Positions 21,768 to 53,913 of a stretch of 64,000 nucleotides of DNA are shown one piece after another (position 1 is the first letter of the stretch; every line of letters begins with the position of its first letter). Below the pieces are notes generated by a model. That model made no database searches. It was not told the DNA's origin and saw only the letters and a list, made by a program, of their open reading frames with translations. Both the position numbers and the translations under genes were made by a program. The stretch is from a virus. The stretch lies in the IMG/VR virus record IMGVR_UViG_3300002301_000012, positions 1 to 64,000 of that record. One strand, 5' to 3'.

Positions 21768-21820
21768 AGTGTAGCATTAGATAAAAGCTTTTGCAATACA
21801 AAAGTTTTGTGGTAGTATAT
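21768..21820. promoter_or_regulatory. Divergent sigma70 promoters sharing a palindromic TTGCAA -35 box
   Basis: Minus strand: TTGCAA-N17-TACACT towards recT. Plus strand: TTGCAA-N16-TAGTAT towards the RHH and MTase genes. Confidence 0.65.
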
Positions 21821-21824
21821 CGGC

Positions 21825-21983
21825 ATGGACAAAAAGACGCAGTACGTCGGCGCAAAGATCCGCTCAGACGTGTGGCGCGAGGCAAAGGCAATGGCAGTCC
21901 GAAGCGGGACAACGACCGCGCAACTACTGGAAAAGGCGCTATTGAATGTACTTCCGCCTGCAACAAGAAAGTTACTGAAATGA
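21825..21983 (+). CDS. Small RHH-type regulator (not in the ORF track)
   Basis: MDKKTQYVGAKIRSDVWREAKAMAVRSGTTTAQLLEKAL; ATGA-coupled to the next gene. Confidence 0.55.
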   Translation: MDKKTQYVGAKIRSDVWREAKAMAVRSGTTTAQLLEKALLNVLPPATRKLLK

Positions 21984-23302
21984 ATAAGCTTCAGATCGAG
22001 TACGTCAAGACAGCCGACCTGCATCCATACGAGCGCAACCCGCGTAAAAACGACGGGCCACCAGTAGAAAAGATGATCGCCAGCATTAAGGAATTCGGCT
22101 TTGCAGTGCCGGTTCTTGTTCGGCGCATCGATAACGAAATCTGCGATGGCCATCTCCGGCTGAAGGCTGCCGTTAAAATGGCTCTCAAAGAAATCCCAGT
22201 CATCTACTGCGACGGTTGGACCGATGCACAGATCCGCGCGTTCAGGCTGGCAGCGAACAGATCCGTAACATGGGCTTCCTTCGACATGGACCTGCTGGCA
22301 CTGGAGATCGCAGACCTGAAGCTATTGGACTTCGACCTTGCGCTGACTGGGTTCGACACCAAAGAGATCGACAAACTTCTGCTCACGCCGAACGCAGCGG
22401 AAGATGATGTGCCGGAAATTCCAGTCACTCCGGCATCACGACTCGGCGATCTGTGGATCATGGGAAAGCATCGTTTGCTATGCGGCGACTCAACTAAGGC
22501 CGAAGACGTCATTCGCCTGATGGATGGCAAGCGTGCTGCACTTATCAACACGGATGCTCCATACGGGATCTCCTACGACAGCGCGAAGATTCACGAGCAC
22601 GGTGTTTCCTATGCCAAGATTGGAAACGACAACAAAGAATATGAGGAATTACAGGCATTTCTCGAAGCCGTGTTCAAATGTGCAGTCGAGCACGCGATTG
22701 TAAAAAATGCTGCATGGTACTTATGGCACGCCATGCTTACCCAAGGATTCTTTGCAGCAGCAGCAGCAGCAGCGCACGTTATCCTCCATCGTCAAATCGT
22801 ATGGGTAAAGCCCGCTCTGGTGTTTGGTCGCGGCCACTACCACTGGATGCATGAGCTATGCTTCTATGGCTGGATCAAAGGCAATCAACCGCCGAATTTG
22901 ACTGGTTTCAAAGATACAACGGTATGGGAGATACCGGGAGTTCCGCAATCTGAACGCAAGGACTTTAACCACCCAACACCGAAGCCAGTCGAGCTATTTC
23001 GTAGGCCGATCCTGAAGCACCTTAACATCGGAGAGATAGCTTACGAACCATTTTCCGGTTCGGGTCCGCAGTTTATTGCGGCTGAGGTGACGGATCGTAT
23101 TTGCTACGGACTGGAACTATCGCCAGCATTCGTCGATTGTATTGTGGTCCGGTGGCAGAACCTTACGAAAAAGGCAGCAATTCTGGAAGGCGACGGGCGA
23201 ACGTTTGAGGAGATCAAAGCGGAGCGACTGCTCGATGCAACACCACCAGAGCCTCGGCAACCAAATCCAGCCAAAACAAAAAAGAAGGCCAAGGCGAAGT
23301 GA
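21980..23302 (+). CDS. ParB-N-domain-fused DNA methyltransferase (N4C/N6A, beta class)
   Basis: ParB motifs LHPYERNPRKN, FGFAVPVLV and DGHLRLKAA; MTase motifs HRLLCGDST, TDAPY, HPTPKPVEL and EPFSGSG. Confidence 0.88.
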   Translation: MNKLQIEYVKTADLHPYERNPRKNDGPPVEKMIASIKEFGFAVPVLVRRIDNEICDGHLRLKAAVKMALKEIPVIYCDGWTDAQIRAFRLAANRSVTWASFDMDLLALEIADLKLLDFDLALTGFDTKEIDKLLLTPNAAEDDVPEIPVTPASRLGDLWIMGKHRLLCGDSTKAEDVIRLMDGKRAALINTDAPYGISYDSAKIHEHGVSYAKIGNDNKEYEELQAFLEAVFKCAVEHAIVKNAAWYLWHAMLTQGFFAAAAAAAHVILHRQIVWVKPALVFGRGHYHWMHELCFYGWIKGNQPPNLTGFKDTTVWEIPGVPQSERKDFNHPTPKPVELFRRPILKHLNIGEIAYEPFSGSGPQFIAAEVTDRICYGLELSPAFVDCIVVRWQNLTKKAAILEGDGRTFEEIKAERLLDATPPEPRQPNPAKTKKKAKAK

Positions 23303-24570
23303 ATCACGTACACTTCAGTTCTGACAGCGACCAATGGCCAACGCCGAAAGCGACGTATGATGCTCTGGATGCAGAGTTTCACTTCGACCTTGATCCGTGT
23401 CCGATGGGCGGAACTAAAAATGGTTTATCGACGTTGTTTATGCCATGGTCAGGATATTTTTGTAAATCCCATGGCTGGGTTGATAAAAACAGTATACAAT
23501 TAATACGTGCAGGTATGCTTAAAGTGCGGAGGCACTGGACCATTCAGAAAACCATCGACCGATCCGCGATGGATAAAGAGACACAAGATTCAGAAGGAAT
23601 GCGAGTCATGTGCAGCCAAACGTCGCAAGGAACAGCGACGGCAAGTGATGAAACGCCACAAGCAAAAAACATTTTATCCTGCACCAAAAAAAACAAAACG
23701 TCTTCAGGTATGCACGAGGTGCAAGAATCCATGGCCAGCGGATGTTCGATTTTACAGCCCCTGTCCGCAGAAACTGAACGGCGTCACTTCGATTTGTCGA
23801 GAGTGCTACAGACAAGGTGCGAAGGCCACAATGGCAAAACGCAGACTAGATCCAATAGAGCACAGGAAAATTCTGGAGGAAAAACGGAGGTACGCTCAGT
23901 CAGAGAAGGGTCGGATGACCAAGCGCAAACAATCATTGACGAGCAATCATGTCAGGCGTCAATTCAATCTAAATCTTCCTTGGAAATGGACTGCTCAGGA
24001 CTGGGAACGCTGCAAGAAGGCCTGGAATTATCAATGTGCTTATTGCGGGATGAAAAAGGAACTAACACAGGATCATTTTATTCCCATATCGGATCGGAAT
24101 TGTCCGGGGACTGTACCAGAGAACATGGTTCCAGCCTGTCTGAGTTGCAACACGAGCAAACAGCACCGCTCCCCGTTCGTGTGGTGCAGGAGCAAGGAGA
24201 CGCTTGCCCTTATTGTGGAATACCTACAGAACATAAAGGATTCCGGGCATTTGTGAATCCACCATATTCCAGATCCATGCGGCGGTGGTTCGAACGAGCG
24301 CACGAAGCAGATATTGCGGTATACCTGACACCGGTGCGAACAGACACGAAGCTGTTTCATGAGATCATTCTTCCATACGCGAAAGAGATCCGATTCCTGC
24401 GCGGCCGGCTGAAGTTCGGTGATGCCGCCAAGCCAGCGCCTTTTCCGTCTATGGTAGTAGTATTCGAAAAGTCACACTACGAGGCTTTGAAAATCACCAG
24501 ACGCGATATGAAGAGGACCGTCGGGCCTTTCGTACCAGTCGCACAAGTTCCTGCTGTGTTCCGCTGGTGA
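23299..24570 (+). CDS. Phage Dam-type N6-adenine methyltransferase with a ~262-aa in-frame insert
   Basis: N-terminal part HFSSDSDQWPTP...FHFDLDPC; C-terminal part FVNPPY...PVRTDT...EIRFLRGRLKF...APFPS; insert at about 23455-24240. Confidence 0.85.
   Translation: MNHVHFSSDSDQWPTPKATYDALDAEFHFDLDPCPMGGTKNGLSTLFMPWSGYFCKSHGWVDKNSIQLIRAGMLKVRRHWTIQKTIDRSAMDKETQDSEGMRVMCSQTSQGTATASDETPQAKNILSCTKKNKTSSGMHEVQESMASGCSILQPLSAETERRHFDLSRVLQTRCEGHNGKTQTRSNRAQENSGGKTEVRSVREGSDDQAQTIIDEQSCQASIQSKSSLEMDCSGLGTLQEGLELSMCLLRDEKGTNTGSFYSHIGSELSGDCTREHGSSLSELQHEQTAPLPVRVVQEQGDACPYCGIPTEHKGFRAFVNPPYSRSMRRWFERAHEADIAVYLTPVRTDTKLFHEIILPYAKEIRFLRGRLKFGDAAKPAPFPSMVVVFEKSHYEALKITRRDMKRTVGPFVPVAQVPAVFRW
23507..24256 (+). 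CDS. HNH homing endonuclease nested in the +1 frame of the Dam-type MTase
   Basis: CAYCG...TQDHFIPIS...NMVPACLSCNTSK HNH motif; four N-terminal CxxC pairs. Confidence 0.88.
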   Translation: MQVCLKCGGTGPFRKPSTDPRWIKRHKIQKECESCAAKRRKEQRRQVMKRHKQKTFYPAPKKTKRLQVCTRCKNPWPADVRFYSPCPQKLNGVTSICRECYRQGAKATMAKRRLDPIEHRKILEEKRRYAQSEKGRMTKRKQSLTSNHVRRQFNLNLPWKWTAQDWERCKKAWNYQCAYCGMKKELTQDHFIPISDRNCPGTVPENMVPACLSCNTSKQHRSPFVWCRSKETLALIVEYLQNIKDSGHL

Positions 24571-24942
24571 TTACGTTTCCATAGCAGCGCAGGTTCCACT
24601 TCACTGGCTGGCCTGTAAGGCGTCCCAAGGCCATACACAGGCTAACGTCGCGACATAAACGCTTCGTGGCTGGCTGCCTTTCGGTGATTTGATCTTCGCT
24701 CCGTTTCGGTGTCTGTTGCAAGCGAAATCGACGAAAAACGATCAAAATATTTCATTCGCCAGTCGTTCGCCTTATTGCCAGTCCTGCCAGTTCCACGGCG
24801 CACCGGAACAACGTGCAACCGCGATAAGCCTTCGAAGTAGTCGGATGATCATAACGACACCTCCAATCACCACCAAACAAACCGGATGGCCAAAGGTTTC
24901 GGGTTCCTTCAGCCATCCGGTAGCCATCGCCAGCCCTGTTAT

Positions 24943-25680
24943 CTAGGCTGCGATCCGATACCGGCGCTTGTCGCCGACCTTCTCGCTTAGAACGGTTATG
25001 CCGTGATTTTTGGTCAGCGCACCGCCAGCCGAAAGCAGTGCTCTGGAGGTATGAGCAAGCCAGCCGAATTCGCTCATGATGGTCTCCAGCGTAACGCCGT
25101 CCTTCGTGCTGAGCATCGCGATCAGTCTGGCCGTCTTGCTGCCATCGCGCGGGCCTTTGGATTCGCCTTCGACTTTCGGAGCCTTTGGTGTTTTCGCAAC
25201 CTTAGCAGACTTCGGTTCTTTGGCCGGTTTCGCCGCCTTGGGTGCCTTCGGTTGCTTTGCCGCCTTCTTGCTCGCCTTGGGTGCCTTCGTCGCTTCCTGT
25301 GCCGGCTGTGCGCCAACGTTGGCGGTCGTGGTGGCTTCAGCCTCTGCGATCTCGCTATTGGCTTCCACATTGGTTGCTTCCGCCACTTCAGCGATAGCCT
25401 CGACTTCAGCAAGGTCGTCGCCGAGCTTCTGGCATTCCGCAAAAACTCGCTCGATTAGCTTGGCCTTGCCGTTTTTGAATGTCTTGATCGGGCTTACACC
25501 AGGAAAGGTGTTGTAGATTTCCACCACTCCGGAAATTGGCACCTCGGCCAGTACGCTGGCCAGTTGCTCTTTGGTCGAGAATACTGCGCCGCCTTCGCCA
25601 GACTCGATGTATCTGATCGCGTCGGCGCGGCTGTCAAAGGCTACGATGGCCTTGTCGTTGTCAATGCTGAATGCTTTCAT
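24943..25680 (-). CDS. DUF3489-domain protein with a Lys/Ala/Pro-rich linker
   Basis: C-terminal PRDGSKTARLIAML...GVTLETIMSEFGWLAHTSRA...RRYRI. Confidence 0.75.
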   Translation of the reverse strand: MKAFSIDNDKAIVAFDSRADAIRYIESGEGGAVFSTKEQLASVLAEVPISGVVEIYNTFPGVSPIKTFKNGKAKLIERVFAECQKLGDDLAEVEAIAEVAEATNVEANSEIAEAEATTTANVGAQPAQEATKAPKASKKAAKQPKAPKAAKPAKEPKSAKVAKTPKAPKVEGESKGPRDGSKTARLIAMLSTKDGVTLETIMSEFGWLAHTSRALLSAGGALTKNHGITVLSEKVGDKRRYRIAA

Positions 25681-51700: not shown

Positions 51701-53913
51701 AGGCTACATTCGACTACCATCCACACGCGACGCTGGCATACGTCGCGCCTGAACGCGCACAGCGGTACGTTGACGACGACTATCTGGACGGCGTGGAATA
51801 TCCAGTGCGGTCCATTGTGATTACAATGCCAGATGGAAGTTCGCAGGAAATCATGCTGACAGGCGGATTCGCAGCACCTGCGAAGTTCAGCGGAAGCGCT
51901 GCGCTGCGGCCAGCGTCATCGCGCATCAAAAATAAAAATAAAAAACCGACGAAAGGCGTCACGCCTCCACCGATAGACCTATCGGACAGCACACAGATCG
52001 ATTCCGGTTATCGCAGCAGTCCAGGTGCAACGCAGTCAAGTACTGTAGCAGTCGAGGACGGTGGCCAAGTGGAGCCGGGAGGCGTGGACGAAAACAATCC
52101 GGCTGAAGATCCACCACGCGCAGATCACAAACCAATGCAGCGAACGGTCCATGCGTTCTTTAAGGCGCAGGCGGCCGCTGCTTTCGACCGACTTAAGCGG
52201 ATCGGTGAACTTCACAAGGTCATCAAGGCGTCAGATGATGGCGATGATCAGGACGATGATGCTGAGCGCATCGGCGAAGCAGAACTGCTGTCCGCTGCGA
52301 ATGACATAAACTGGCGCGAACTGATACCACAGGTTCTGGCGCATCTGCAAGAGGCTGGCAACTTCGGTGTTGTGAACGGTCTGCATCGCGCGGCAGTGGC
52401 CGGTGTCGGTGAAACGTCGGCTTCCATCGGACCAGCACAAACGCTTGCTGCTGAATACGCTAAGGACCGCGCTGCCGAAATGGTCGGCATGAAATGGGTC
52501 GACGGCGAACTGGTCGAAAATCCGAACGCAATGTGGGCTATCAGCGACACAACGCGAGACCAGTTGCGTGAAATAATCGCGCAGGCACTATCGGAAGAAA
52601 CGCCGATTGACGTGCTTGCCGAACGTATCCGCGATGCTGGTTCGTTTTCTGAATCGCGTGCGGAGACTATCGCCAATACTGAGATCGCAACGGCACAGGA
52701 GAAAGGCGTTACTGGCTCGTGGAAGGCTACAGGAGCAGTTGAGAAGGTGCGCTGGTCTCCATCGTCGCTCGGGCCATGTCCGGAGTGTCTGGACAACGTT
52801 TTGGCAGGTTCAATACCGTTTGGAGATACTTTCCCCACTGGTGTATTAGCTCCTCCGAACCATCCGAACTGCTTCGCTGGTGATGCAGTCGTATCGGCCA
52901 GCGGAGTTTCGGTAGCGTACAGTCGTTGGTTTGAAGGGGAAGTCATCATCCTGCGAGTCTCTGGCGCACCAGACATTACCGTCACGCCAAATCACCCGAT
53001 ACTGACGCAACGTGGATGGGTCGCTGCTGGTGATTTGGAACTCACGGATAAGGTCTTGCAGTGCGTTGATCCAAATCTGGCTGTCTCCCTGATGAACCCA
53101 GACGATAATCACATGGAAACCGGCATCCAGGAGATAGCGCACACGCTTGGGATGTCGCACAGCGTGTTGTTCAGTATTGTGCCAACCTCCACCGAAGACT
53201 TCCACGGCGATGGAATCGCCAACGGCAAAGTCGATATTGTAGGCACCGCAGGCGCGCTGTCTTGTGACCAGTCCGATAGAATTCAGCACAGAGAAAACAC
53301 GCTGCTCTGCGCTCTGCATGAGCGGGGGCTTTTGCTGAATAGCGATTGCGTGCATCCGTTTGGTATCTTCGGGGACGATTCTTCCGCGACTGGCAGCATG
53401 AGCAGCAGCGGTCTGATGAAGTCGTTGGTCTTTGGTCAGTTGTCCCATGCGGACAATGGCGGCTTCATGGGTTCCACGGACCATCAAACCAGAACGCTTG
53501 AAAGCTTTGATGATCATTGTATGGTGGGTGTCATGCCTTTTCCCGATAGACAAAGCAGACTCACCAGCCAAGTAGCTTGTGTGCATAGCCATCAATTCGG
53601 GCAGCGTGAATTTGCAGTCTCTTCCTTTGCGCATCGGATCGCCCGGTTGGCGAAGAGAGATTCCAGAACGAATCAAGTTAAGACGAACCATACCGTAACC
53701 AAGCTGGTATCGCGCACAAATAGTCTGGAGCGTGTCGCCAGCCTGATACGCTTTGCAGATGTCGTCAAGTTGTGGAAGAATCGTTTTGCGGGGCATGTGT
53801 TTAACCTCAGTACAGATACCGGCACGTATTTTGCTAACACTATACTTGCACACAACTGTCGGTGTGCTTTGATTATCACAAAGGTTCGCGGTAAAGAGGA
53901 GAAAGCAGCATGA
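48721..53913 (+). CDS. Portal + 2H phosphoesterase + MuF (minor head) fusion with two inteins
   Basis: Portal motifs at about 48721-51180; HVT and HAT 2H motifs at 51490 and 51724; MuF motifs RAETIANTEIATAQ, CPEC and PPNHPN/CRC; two HINT domains. Confidence 0.88.
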   Translation: MANFQVPEGAKRLGPINALIGTQPTQVAGVSPSFWFSPLQPVTPTAPSDYKPRQWGYQPGANLIWQPKSDEGYGYDLLRQLSLSWDLLRMALEMKKDEIGDVEFELRLKRQDNEKQADYKNRTLKGAKELQDLKQFWAKPDGFNTFRQWLRMLSEDLLVCDAVACYLPRDNKGKVAMVMPTDGASWNRLLTDQGITPRDPTSAAYQQVCYGFPAWDGTTQDVVFSMQNPTTYRRYGYSRVERCLTTVAFGIRRQMFQIAEYCYSSDTEVLTSRGWLKWPDVTMDDTFATRRMESGEFEWQKAEGYIRKQFNGNLIRFKNVSLDILVTPNHRMLVGDLPGRYQRGCPTAKVPRIKECLVEASNLALQRALSGPNISAWIPQVSEWNGGVRIEDKVWLSPNNKEITVRMTGDQYCAFMGMYLAEGCVGGSEKPTLVHICQPKDKKGIHQIFSDMLSEIFGADVHHDGKMFSWSRKSLALYLRQFGLANEKFIPEEIKNAPKDQLQIFWRYYALGDGESATAIGEKKRSQQVFTVSKKLSDDLTEVVQKIGLRPNVGVRAAGKAFFGKPGLGREINASEGYTITATDQPCTRNWDVEFVPYDGEVFCVSVPNHTLYVRRNGKHAWCGNTAGNIPEAFLFMPSDIPPQRLKEFQDYIDSILSGNLAERRKIRMMPGFGDSGKPNIVFPKEALLKDELDVWLAQLVCAIVGVSAQPFLKMVNRASSEEANDAAREKWLKPDVDFFCEYINTCLERMGMDQYEIAAKAQRDTDPLKQAQADAAVWGKVYTPNELREQRGEDPVEGKNANRLGVLSPMNGFMPLDPDDDDLALMQQMKATPPKPDGSGGGGGSPAPNGGGSGGSPKPKTKPSAKKSLAATWDLEKDHKYGCIMVPIDPASEAGLRMKAMRDAIPDADLMEGNGTSREEEPHVTVRYGIKDGGEGLPEYLTGLAPFTLKFGKTMAFAPSEQSDGAAPLVVQVDSPELHAVNAQLAQEATFKEATFDYHPHATLAYVAPERAQRYVDDDYLDGVEYPVRSIVITMPDGSSQEIMLTGGFAAPAKFSGSAALRPASSRIKNKNKKPTKGVTPPPIDLSDSTQIDSGYRSSPGATQSSTVAVEDGGQVEPGGVDENNPAEDPPRADHKPMQRTVHAFFKAQAAAAFDRLKRIGELHKVIKASDDGDDQDDDAERIGEAELLSAANDINWRELIPQVLAHLQEAGNFGVVNGLHRAAVAGVGETSASIGPAQTLAAEYAKDRAAEMVGMKWVDGELVENPNAMWAISDTTRDQLREIIAQALSEETPIDVLAERIRDAGSFSESRAETIANTEIATAQEKGVTGSWKATGAVEKVRWSPSSLGPCPECLDNVLAGSIPFGDTFPTGVLAPPNHPNCFAGDAVVSASGVSVAYSRWFEGEVIILRVSGAPDITVTPNHPILTQRGWVAAGDLELTDKVLQCVDPNLAVSLMNPDDNHMETGIQEIAHTLGMSHSVLFSIVPTSTEDFHGDGIANGKVDIVGTAGALSCDQSDRIQHRENTLLCALHERGLLLNSDCVHPFGIFGDDSSATGSMSSSGLMKSLVFGQLSHADNGGFMGSTDHQTRTLESFDDHCMVGVMPFPDRQSRLTSQVACVHSHQFGQREFAVSSFAHRIARLAKRDSRTNQVKTNHTVTKLVSRTNSLERVASLIRFADVVKLWKNRFAGHVFNLSTDTGTYFANTILAHNCRCALIITKVRGKEEKAA
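49504..50595 (+). mobile_element. Intein 1 (364 aa) with a LAGLIDADG-type endonuclease, in the portal domain
   Basis: Starts CYSSDTEVLT; block B VTPNHRM; FMGMYLAEG and YYALGDG motifs; ends LYVRRNGKHAWCGN followed by Thr. Splicing restores AEY-TAGNIPE. Confidence 0.9.
52846..53796 (-). CDS. DUF559/Vsr-like endonuclease with tandem HTH repeats, antisense to intein 2
   Basis: Two HTH-like repeats (YQAGDTLQTICARYQL, YLAGESALSIGKRHDT); nuclease core AEQRV...YNIDFAV...IAVEVFGGGWH...LLDAGFHVIIVW; GAGG-N8-ATG at 53796. Confidence 0.82.
   Translation of the reverse strand: MPRKTILPQLDDICKAYQAGDTLQTICARYQLGYGMVRLNLIRSGISLRQPGDPMRKGRDCKFTLPELMAMHTSYLAGESALSIGKRHDTHHTMIIKAFKRSGLMVRGTHEAAIVRMGQLTKDQRLHQTAAAHAASRGRIVPEDTKRMHAIAIQQKPPLMQSAEQRVFSVLNSIGLVTRQRACGAYNIDFAVGDSIAVEVFGGGWHNTEQHAVRHPKRVRYLLDAGFHVIIVWVHQGDSQIWINALQDLIREFQITSSDPSTLRQYRVIWRDGNVWCARDSQDDDFPFKPTTVRYRNSAGRYDCITSEAVRMVRRS
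52870..53856 (+). mobile_element. Intein 2 (329 aa) in the MuF HPNCRC motif, with no in-frame nuclease
   Basis: Starts CFAGDAVV; block B ITVTPNHPIL; block F/G GHVFNLSTDTGTYFANTILAHN followed by Cys. Confidence 0.92.

What the first reader, a model, noticed from the sequence alone, without database searches (positions are those of the whole stretch)
23455..24256. Dam-type methyltransferase with a stop-free 262-codon insert hiding an HNH endonuclease in the +1 frame
Seen: deleting about 23455-24240 restores the canonical W-S-G-F-R-A-F-V-N-P-P-Y, and both junctions share AGGAT. The host frame stays open through the insert but reads as low-complexity sequence. The +1 frame encodes a full HNH nuclease (23507-24256), preceded by TACAAT-N6-GTG, the spacing of a leaderless transcript. 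No intein termini or evident group I/II intron features were seen. The insert begins with C-x2-H (CKSH) and ends with CPYC. Inference: these two half-sites could form one zinc knuckle that staples the insert ends, so the MTase folds without splicing. That would be a third way, besides introns and inteins, for a homing endonuclease to sit harmlessly in a gene. From memory and unverified here, an out-of-frame HNH has been reported in an actinobacteriophage methylase insertion, so the general concept may have precedent.
Basis: partly seen in the sequence, partly recalled or inferred. Interest (0 to 1): 0.88.

Follow-up and report, generated by a model that had tools for sequence, protein, structure and literature searches.

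The report
Hidden HNH gene inside Dam methylase
A selfish HNH nuclease gene sits in a shifted reading frame inside a phage adenine-methylase gene whose own frame is kept free of stop codons, so the methylase is probably translated straight through it. This design was first published in 2025, and this is a new lineage of it.

Summary
A PF05869 Dam gene (23299-24570) carries a net 786-nt insert (23456-24241). A full HNH gene (23507-24256) lies in its +1 frame.

The host frame has 0 stops where 10.6-15.7 are expected (0 of 20,000 resamplings). None of 74 at-risk codon junctions has the dangerous T, against 53 of 175 elsewhere.

All 17 closest metagenomic HNH relatives, plus one MAG, are nested the same way in Dam genes just before motif IV (NPPY). 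Their host frame is open in either of two registers. The 63 more distant relatives have stops in both other frames.

Substitutions are HNH-synonymous in the body of the insert and host-synonymous at its ends. No intron or intein signature was found. Read-through translation is therefore the best reading.

The zinc-clasp idea gains comparative support: C-x2-C-G is invariant in 15 of 15 same-register relatives and there are Cys/His pairs at the 5' end. It is structurally untested. A -10 box 6-7 nt before the HNH start recurs in 11 of 13 loci, which suggests a leaderless HNH mRNA.

The kind is already published (ShiLan domain, PMC11855218), and this scan has noted it 61 times on other DNA. This is a new member: a different HNH clade and a different methylase family.

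The parts
23299..23455 (+). N-terminal part of the Dam-type N6-adenine methyltransferase (residues 1-52, with the D-L-D-P-C-P AdoMet-site motif and W50). The GTG start overlaps the stop of the upstream ParB-N6_N4 methylase gene (GTGA).
   Evidence: PF05869 profile positions 7-37; aligns with insert-free homologues.
23456..24241 (+). Net insert of 786 nt (262 codons), stop-free in the host frame. Because AGGAT is repeated at both junctions, the boundary is ambiguous by 5 nt.
   Evidence: absent from about 150-aa homologues that match the query in two stretches.
23457..23469 (+). Degenerate upstream copy of the target (TTTTTGTAAATCC, against the real TTTGTGAATCC at 24250-24260). It is shifted by one base here, so that F-V-N-P reads as F-C-K-S.
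   Evidence: The same duplication is seen in relatives, for example RCWMNPP...RVFMNPPY in L007 and NLFVNFF...SIFVNPPY in L008. The ShiLan paper reports the same feature.
23461..23472 (+). 5' half-site C55-K-S-H58 in the host frame (proposed metal ligands).
   Evidence: C-x2-[CH]-G in 7 of 15 same-register relatives; the other 8 have C-x-C, C-C-C, C-x2-C without the Gly, or C...C-x2-H.
23495..23500 (+). -10-like box TACAAT, 6 nt before the HNH start codon (proposed promoter of a leaderless HNH mRNA).
   Evidence: TAnnnT at this spacing in 11 of 13 nested loci against 1.9% background. No well-spaced -35 in the window.
23507..24256 (+). HNH homing endonuclease gene (249 aa, GTG start, TGA stop overlapping the V-N codons just before NPPY). 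It has N-terminal CxxC zinc-finger repeats and an HNH core at about 24035-24169.
   Evidence: Substitutions in relatives are synonymous in this frame through the body.
24205..24219 (+). 3' half-site C303-P-Y-C306-G307 in the host frame (rubredoxin-type knuckle pattern).
   Evidence: C, C and G are invariant in 15 of 15 relatives at 23-44% identity. The Cys codons need T at the third position of the preceding HNH codon, and that T is present in the five same-register loci read at this site (WIN, L007, L012, L015, L017), even at 62-68% GC.
24242..24570 (+). C-terminal part of the methyltransferase: strand beta4 (F-R-A-F-V), catalytic N-P-P-Y (24256-24267), and the R-T-D-T, G-R-L-K-F and A-P-F-P-S motifs.
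   Evidence: AF2 pLDDT 80-97.

Best explanation
This is a homing-type HNH endonuclease gene overprinted, out of frame, on an insertion in a phage Dam-family (PF05869) methyltransferase gene. It is a new lineage of the 'hidden HNH' or ShiLan-type elements.

Proposed mechanism:
1. Shown: the methyltransferase frame is kept stop-free by selection on the synonymous sites of the HNH gene.
2. Inferred: the enzyme is therefore translated straight through the 262 extra codons, without RNA or protein splicing.
3. Shown in relatives: the middle of the extra peptide is constrained only to lack stops. Both AF2 models predict it as disordered.
4. Shown in relatives: the two ends of the insert are under host-frame purifying selection.
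5. Inferred: the two ends close the loop, in this lineage probably through a Cys/His metal site (C55, H58, C303, C306).
6. Shown: at the DNA level the element sits in the N-P-P-Y codons, but it carries its own beta4 copy at its 3' end.
7. Inferred: at the protein level the insertion therefore lands before strand beta4, on the face away from the active site.
8. Inferred: the HNH is made from its own leaderless mRNA, started by a -10 box 6 nt upstream of the GTG. It cuts insert-free Dam alleles at the conserved motif IV sequence and so spreads.
For: - Stop avoidance in the window: 0 stops against 10.6-15.7 expected, 0 of 20,000 trials; 0 of 74 against 53 of 175 T-ending codons at risky junctions.
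- Family-wide pattern: all 17 closest metagenomic relatives, plus L083, are nested in PF05869 genes at profile position about 62-65. Each has 0 host-frame stops and 4-37 stops in the other alternative frame where the full HNH ORF is held (1 in the two end-truncated loci, L017 and L018). The 63 more distant relatives have 1-44 stops in each of the two other frames.
- A dozen further read-through proteins turned up in a 1.8-billion-protein search.
- Substitution pattern in L002/L003/L006: HNH-synonymous in the body (47 of 67 and 27 of 38). It switches to host-synonymous in the last 90 nt (12 of 16 and 10 of 13) and in the flanks.
- Clasp: C-x2-C-G invariant in 15 of 15; forced T at third positions; 5' Cys/His pairs in all 15.
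- Both halves assemble into one N6A-methyltransferase fold with a low-confidence loop.
- No Rfam intron and no Hint domain. No boundary choice within the AGGAT repeat gives both a U before the 5' splice site and a G as the last intron base.
- -10 box spacing conserved.
- This is the only PF05869 gene in the 94-kb virus and the last gene of its strand block.
- Same architecture as the published ShiLan domain.
Against: - There is no transcript, protein or activity data for this or any such element. No RNA run holds the stretch.
- The clasp is not shown structurally. The two AF2 models disagree at the 5' end (beta-hairpin at pLDDT 60-75 against a low-confidence helix), and no coordinates were available to measure distances.
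- Four AT-rich relatives lack the cysteines.
- The 3' Cys codons overlap a semi-conserved HNH motif (Y/L-A-x-I-V), so part of their conservation could come from the other frame.
- The window has no well-spaced -35 element.
- How an element could arrive in a gene already stop-free in the host frame, and in two registers, is unexplained. The HNH tree does not resolve the registers.
Confidence: 0.72

Rival explanations
1. The insert is an unrecognised self-splicing or host-spliced intron that carries the HNH ORF. The methyltransferase would be made from spliced mRNA.
For: Homing HNH genes commonly live in group I introns of phages. The start of the insert resembles the sequence after the insertion site, as in some group I introns. 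Rfam holds only described families.
Against: - If the insert were spliced out, there would be no reason to purge every host-frame stop in the window and in all 18 nested relatives, in two registers.
- The non-ORF part is only about 50 nt.
- No Rfam match even at E = 10.
- No boundary choice within the AGGAT repeat gives an exon-terminal U together with an intron-terminal G.
- Host-frame purifying selection extends into the ends of the insert.
Confidence: 0.07
2. The frame is kept open for a reason other than methyltransferase function, for example to keep ribosomes on the mRNA or to regulate HNH expression. On this view the read-through protein is inactive or dispensable.
For: Phage methylases are often non-essential. 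No activity data exist. The insert peptide is predicted disordered.
Against: - Both methyltransferase halves keep all family motifs and evolve under host-frame purifying selection in relatives.
- The gene is the last of its strand block, so polarity on downstream genes is not an issue.
- The ends of the insert are conserved at the protein level in the host frame.
- There is no second PF05869 copy in the genome.
Confidence: 0.12
3. The insert is removed after translation, either by a new kind of protein splicing or by proteolysis that leaves two associating fragments.
For: The host frame is translated through. The insert starts near a Cys. Inteins occur in the same phage according to other readers' notes.
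Against: - No Hint domain or intein blocks.
- There is no His-Asn at the C-terminal junction, and the residue after the insert is Phe.
- The central 200 residues are not under host-frame purifying selection, so they cannot encode a folded splicing domain.
- AF2 gives no fold for them.
Confidence: 0.04

Closest known systems
ShiLan domain, the hidden out-of-frame HNH in mycobacteriophage DNA methylase gp65, and the Pacc40 gp60 insertion (Gosselin et al. 2023, PMC9957025; Arsenault, Gosselin and Gogarten 2025, PMC11855218)
   Same: [quoted passage not shown]
- A stop-free host frame.
- A GTG start a few codons into the insert with no Shine-Dalgarno sequence, and an HNH stop at the very end of the insert.
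- The start of the insert resembles the residues after the insertion site.
- No intron or intein signatures.
- The insert is predicted to loop out.
- Leaderless translation is proposed.
   Different: - Different HNH clade: no mycobacteriophage methylase is hit by this HNH or by the L007 HNH.
- Different methylase family: no Mycobacterium phage appears in the organism tally or the listed rows of the Dam C-terminal search.
- The frame is +1 here and the third frame in ShiLan.
- 249 aa against 195 aa.
- The target here is motif IV (NPPY) of PF05869.
- Added here: quantified selection against stops, the switch of selected frame along the insert, conserved terminal Cys knuckles, and a conserved -10 box spacing.
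Free-standing homing endonuclease genes that split their host gene (for example mobE in nrdA of Aeromonas phage Aeh1, cited from my own knowledge) and intron-less homing by T4 seg and mob genes (review PMC2988022 listed, not read)
   Same: A homing endonuclease gene with its own expression signals sits inside or beside a conserved gene without an intron or an intein.
   Different: In those cases the host gene is cut into two separately translated pieces, or is left untouched. Here one continuous host ORF is kept across the endonuclease gene.
Group I intron-encoded HNH endonucleases (I-HmuI, and the SPbeta/phi3T HNH genes hit at 25-28% identity) and inteins
   Same: A homing endonuclease occupies the most conserved site of a host gene. 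The HNH has the same domain make-up: zinc fingers plus an HNH core.
   Different: No ribozyme and no Hint domain were detected. The host frame is under selection to stay open through the element, which neither of those classes requires.

Membership tests
ShiLan-type hidden (out-of-frame) HNH insertion in a DNA methylase | Insertion in a DNA methyltransferase gene relative to insert-free homologues | tested here: met
   About 150-aa homologues match residues 1-52 and 313-394 as two stretches. The Pfam match is split.
ShiLan-type hidden (out-of-frame) HNH insertion in a DNA methylase | Host reading frame free of stops across the insertion | tested here: met
   0 stops against 10.6-15.7 expected, 0 of 20,000 trials. 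The same holds in 17 metagenome loci and 1 MAG.
ShiLan-type hidden (out-of-frame) HNH insertion in a DNA methylase | Complete HNH endonuclease ORF in an alternative frame that fills the insertion | tested here: met
   ORF 23507-24256; PF01844 at 31.3 bits; full-length homologues.
ShiLan-type hidden (out-of-frame) HNH insertion in a DNA methylase | Start of the insertion resembles the sequence after the insertion site | tested here: met
   TTTTTGTAAATCC against TTTGTGAATCC in the window. The duplication is clearer in L007, L008, L010 and L015.
ShiLan-type hidden (out-of-frame) HNH insertion in a DNA methylase | Sequence homology of the HNH or the methylase to ShiLan gp65 | tested here: inconclusive
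   No methylase-annotated mycobacteriophage hit in three tblastn searches of 50,697 phage records. The ShiLan sequence itself was not retrieved for a direct comparison.
PF05869 Dam (phage-type N6-adenine methyltransferase) | Pfam score above the gathering threshold and the catalytic N-P-P-Y motif | tested here: met
   44.2 bits against a cut-off of 28.1. NPPY at 24256-24267. The model matches M.TaqI (Z 7.7), EcoDam (Z 6.7) and T4 Dam (Z 6.3).
HNH endonuclease (PF01844) | HNH motif and its metal-binding residues, with a score above threshold | tested here: met
   31.3 bits against a cut-off of 21.4. D189, H190, N206 and the C211/C214 pair are invariant in the family alignment, and N215 is nearly invariant.
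Group I intron | Ribozyme core (P3-P9) | tested here: inconclusive
   No Rfam match at E up to 10 in 22500-25500. Only about 50 nt lie outside the ORF.
Group I intron | U at the end of the 5' exon together with G at the end of the intron | tested here: not met
   None of the five possible boundary placements within the AGGAT repeat gives both.
Intein | Hint splicing blocks, a terminal His-Asn, a Cys/Ser/Thr at +1, and the endonuclease in frame | tested here: not met
   No Hint family at E up to 0.1. The junction reads ...E-H-K-G|F-R-A. The nuclease is in another frame. The middle of the insert is not under host-frame selection.
Zinc ribbon or rubredoxin-like Cys4/Cys3His site | Two knuckles, C-x2-C(H)-G and C-P-x-C-G | tested here: met
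   CKSHG and CPYCG in the window. The 3' knuckle is invariant in 15 of 15 and the 5' knuckle is present in 7 of 15, with other Cys/His pairs in the rest.
Zinc ribbon or rubredoxin-like Cys4/Cys3His site | The four ligands are adjacent in space and bind metal | not testable with these tools
The AF2 models disagree at the 5' end.

The most novel reading that the evidence does not exclude
In this Dam-targeting lineage the selfish element has evolved its own protein-level 'harmlessness device'. It carries a replacement copy of strand beta4, so that the peptide insertion lands before the strand rather than in the catalytic NPPY loop. It also carries two Cys/His knuckles at its ends, which form a metal clasp and loop out about 250 residues of unconstrained off-frame peptide. 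The decayed copy of the target doubles as promoter elements for a leaderless HNH mRNA. This would be an evolved, splicing-free alternative to introns and inteins, with defined and testable parts.
Probability: 0.45. Interest if true: 0.6.

Novelty: new member of a known kind. Interest (0 to 1): 0.42.

Why it matters
Homing endonucleases were thought to survive inside essential or useful genes only by hiding in self-splicing introns or inteins, or by splitting the gene. The 2025 ShiLan paper proposed a splicing-free route on the basis of a few mycobacteriophages, without statistics or experiments.

This locus and its relatives show the same design in a different methylase family and a different HNH clade. 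They add:
- strong quantitative evidence that selection keeps the host frame open;
- a map of which frame is selected where along the insert;
- two concrete, mutable features: the terminal Cys/His knuckles and a -10 box at leaderless spacing.

That makes the read-through hypothesis directly testable in a small gene of about 1.3 kb. It is also a practical warning for annotation: long 'methyltransferases' with a low-complexity middle may hide a nuclease gene.

Tried and rejected
- Two scans of viral contigs with the HNH and with P0002 found nothing.
- blastn of the gene against 50,697 phage records found no match.
- The Gordonia phage GiKK best hit is a free-standing HNH that lies under no methylase annotation.
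- The ShiLan sequence could not be located by similarity, so no direct alignment with the published element was made.
- The sigma-70 scan found no full promoter on the + strand near 23495.
- Sequencing runs: no RNA holder was listed. The contigs of four DNA runs show no joined (insert-free) form, which says nothing about rare alleles.
- Complex prediction on the two insert ends (residues 44-80 and 294-330) with Zn gave no verdict: score 0.04 against a mark of 0.32.
- The HNH tree did not resolve whether the two frame registers are separate clades.
- Three GC-rich genome loci (L139, L152, L157) have an open alternative frame that translates to Arg/Pro/Ala-rich sequence with no methylase motif IV. 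I dismissed them as chance.
- Considered and rejected: ribosomal bypassing or frameshifting (786 nt is far too long, and neither needs an open frame), and a sequencing frameshift that hides an in-frame intein (the sequence is identical in independent assemblies).

Full report
**What is there**

The + strand holds a 423-codon ORF (23299-24570). Its two ends match the phage Dam family PF05869 (44.2 bits, two stretches). In the +1 frame lies a 249-codon ORF (23507-24256) that matches HNH endonuclease PF01844.

The 5-mer AGGAT occurs at 23451-23455 and at 24237-24241. Removing 23456-24241 (786 nt, 262 codons) yields W-S-G-F-R-A-F-V-N-P-P-Y. This matches the consensus W.G..VF.NPPY of about 150-aa insert-free homologues, which hit the query as two separate stretches, residues 1-52 and about 313-394.

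The HNH protein aligns over its whole length, zinc-finger repeats included, with metagenomic relatives at 36-54% identity and with annotated phage HNH genes at 23-31%. It is a genuine gene.

The virus record (94 kb, IMG/VR) has no second PF05869 gene. The stretch is identical, insert included, in contigs of four DNA runs from three studies. Assembly or frameshift artefacts are therefore excluded.

**Is the open host frame chance?**

No. I kept the HNH protein fixed and redrew its codons from the window's usage. This gives 10.6 host-frame stops on average. Permuting its own synonymous codons gives 12.3, and shuffling codon order gives 15.7. Not one of 20,000 trials reached zero, and the third frame has 14 stops.

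Mechanistically, a host-frame stop arises when an HNH codon ending in T precedes a codon starting AA, AG or GA. There are 74 such junctions and none has the T, whereas 53 of the other 175 codons end in T.

**Relatives**

A scan of JGI and ENA metagenome contigs with an HNH alignment returned 80 loci. The 17 best (94 bits or more) are all nested in a longer ORF of another frame. That frame has no stop across the HNH ORF and runs on into both flanks wherever the contig holds them. The remaining alternative frame has 4-37 stops where the full HNH ORF is held, and 1 in the two end-truncated loci. All other 63 loci have 1-44 stops in each of the two other frames.

Every host ORF scanned (ten loci, covering all sequence groups) is a PF05869 methyltransferase interrupted at profile position about 62-65, and motif IV follows the HNH stop within 0-11 residues. 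The host frame is HNH+1 in some lineages and HNH+2 in others.

One further case lies in a Lentimicrobium MAG (L083). A search of 1.8 billion representative proteins found about a dozen more read-through products, among them P0069, P0071, P0080, P0085, P0088, P0099, P0108, P0116, P0117 and P0197.

Nesting with an open host frame is thus a trait of a whole HNH clade that targets Dam motif IV.

**Which frame is selected where**

I compared L002, L003 and L006 pairwise.
- In the HNH body, substitutions fall on HNH third positions and are HNH-synonymous (47 of 67 and 27 of 38). They change the host-frame residue.
- In the last 90 nt of the HNH ORF the pattern flips: host-synonymous 12 of 16 and 10 of 13, HNH-synonymous 3 and 1.
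- The flips also hold in both flanks.

The insert is therefore a mosaic. Its ends code for the methyltransferase. Its middle codes for the nuclease and merely avoids host-frame stops.

**Anatomy of the junctions**

The insert starts with a decayed copy of the target. In the window this is TTTTTGTAAATCC (23457-23469), against the real TTTGTGAATCC (24250-24260). In L007 it is R-C-W-M-N-P-P before the insert and R-V-F-M-N-P-P-Y after it. In L008 it is N-L-F-V-N-F-F and S-I-F-V-N-P-P-Y.

The copies part after AATCC, that is, inside the N-P codons. The HNH stop overlaps the codons just before N-P-P-Y. At the DNA level the element therefore sits in the most conserved sequence of the gene. Because its 3' end supplies a working beta4 strand, the protein-level insertion lies before beta4.

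In class I methyltransferases the active site lies at the C-terminal ends of the strands. The loop before beta4 therefore faces away from it. That point rests on established fold knowledge, and its application here is my inference.

**The clasp idea**

In 15 same-register sequences (23-44% identical to the window product), C303, C306 and G307 are invariant, and the motif is mostly C-P-x-C-G, the rubredoxin-type knuckle.

These Cys codons need T at the third position of the preceding HNH codon. The T is present at both positions in the five same-register loci read at this site (WIN, L007, L012, L015, L017), including two with 62-68% GC. In L005 the script picked up a different, C-terminal CPGCG, so its junction codons were not read.

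The 5' end is not overlapped by the HNH ORF. All 15 sequences carry at least two Cys/His there. Seven have C-x2-[CH]-G; the others have C-x-C, C-C-C, C-x2-C without the Gly, or C...C-x2-H.

The GC-rich lineages of the other register also have Cys clusters at both ends: S-S-C-P-S-D-C-H-K-H with E-P-C-G-C in L002, L003 and L006, and clusters in L013 and L018. Four AT-rich loci (L004, L008-L010) have none. In those I take the hydrophobic stretches at the two ends for strand-like segments that could close the loop instead; this is my reading of the sequences, not a tested structure.

AF2 places both enzyme halves in one methyltransferase fold: pLDDT 75-97, with best structural matches M.TaqI (Z 7.7), EcoDam (Z 6.7) and T4 Dam (Z 6.3). 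It leaves residues from about 54-78 to 296-299 below pLDDT 50.

With the insert-only alignment, the ends form short hairpins around both knuckles at pLDDT 60-80. With the deep but locally misaligned alignment, the 5' end is a low-confidence helix. No coordinates were available. The clasp is therefore supported by conservation only.

**HNH expression**

A TAnnnT hexamer lies 6 nt (once 7 nt) before the HNH start in 11 of 13 nested loci. That is 7 of 9 distinct lineages, against 1.9% of all ATG/GTG codons in the same DNA.

Several loci have a full promoter: L005 TTGACA-N18-TATAAT, L002 and L006 TTGCTT-N17-TATAGT or TACAAT, and L009 TTGACG-N17-TACGAT. In L007, L012 and L015 the -35 element is TTGTAA, which is the decayed target copy.

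The spacing fits transcripts that begin at the start codon. L004 uses a TATAAT box plus a Shine-Dalgarno sequence instead, and L013 is unclear. The window has TACAAT-N6-GTG but no well-spaced -35.

**Rivals**

- An intron is unlikely. There is no Rfam hit at E up to 10. Only about 50 nt lie outside the ORF. No boundary choice gives U...G. Above all, splicing gives no reason to purge host-frame stops.
- An intein is excluded. There is no Hint domain, the junction residues are wrong, the nuclease is in another frame, and the middle is not under host-frame constraint.
- A dead gene is excluded by the selection data.
- An open frame kept for reasons other than enzyme function cannot be ruled out without an assay. 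It fits poorly with the conserved catalytic motifs, with the host-frame selection at the insert ends, and with the gene being the last of its strand block.

**Known or new**

The kind is published. The 'ShiLan domain' of mycobacteriophage methylase gp65 was shown in 2025 to be an out-of-frame HNH (GTG 18 bp in, stop in the last 4 nt) in a stop-free host frame. It has the same duplicated start, no intron or intein features, a predicted looped-out structure and a proposed leaderless start. Pacc40 gp60 is a second case. No experiments have been reported.

This scan has 61 earlier notes of the kind on other DNA, mostly in cytosine methylases, and one of them proposes a metal-pinned clasp. None shares sequence with this HNH.

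The present element differs in HNH clade, methylase family and target site. I class it as a new member of a known kind. It adds the selection statistics, the frame mosaic, the conserved knuckles and the promoter spacing.

**Unexplained**

It is unclear how such an element can enter a gene already stop-free in the host frame, and how two registers arose. The HNH tree does not resolve this.

Noticed in passing
L110:327-2096 (Phycisphaerales MAG JBAZUW010000001.1); HNH ORF at L110:1030-1788: A PF01555 N6_N4 methyltransferase (155 bits, two stretches) carries a nested out-of-frame HNH (PF01844). There are 0 host-frame stops across 253 codons and 6 in the other frame. The same design therefore occurs in a second methylase family, with an HNH only distantly related to the one in the window.
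   Followed up: partly
protein P0010 (290 aa, Logan): A PF05869 Dam protein has an in-frame LAGLIDADG (PF00961) insertion of about 145 residues at a different site, between ...K-Y-I-L-P-F and I-R-F-I-K-G-R-L-K-F. The precomputed domains for P0010 list only PF00961 and PF05869, with no Hint family. It recalls the 'lone LAGLIDADG' reported in the ShiLan methylase family.
   Followed up: no
window 21791-23302 and 23299: The upstream gene is a ParB_N plus N6_N4 methyltransferase fusion. Its TGA stop overlaps the GTG start of the Dam gene (GTGA), which suggests translational coupling of two methylase genes.
   Followed up: no
L007:1230-1300; L012:75-120; L015:255-300: The decayed upstream copy of the target (TTGTAA...) lies 17 nt before the -10-like box of the HNH gene. 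The remnant of the homing site seems to have been reused as a -35 element.
   Followed up: partly
L005:483-1628 (host ORF, C-terminus): This Dam host protein has an extra C-terminal C-P-G-C-G motif in addition to the two knuckles at its insert ends.
   Followed up: no
window 52846-53856 (note e1-6020290 by another reader): The same phage is reported to have an intein with a nuclease-like ORF on the opposite strand across most of the intein. If real, this would be a second overprinted homing nuclease in one genome. I did not examine it.
   Followed up: no
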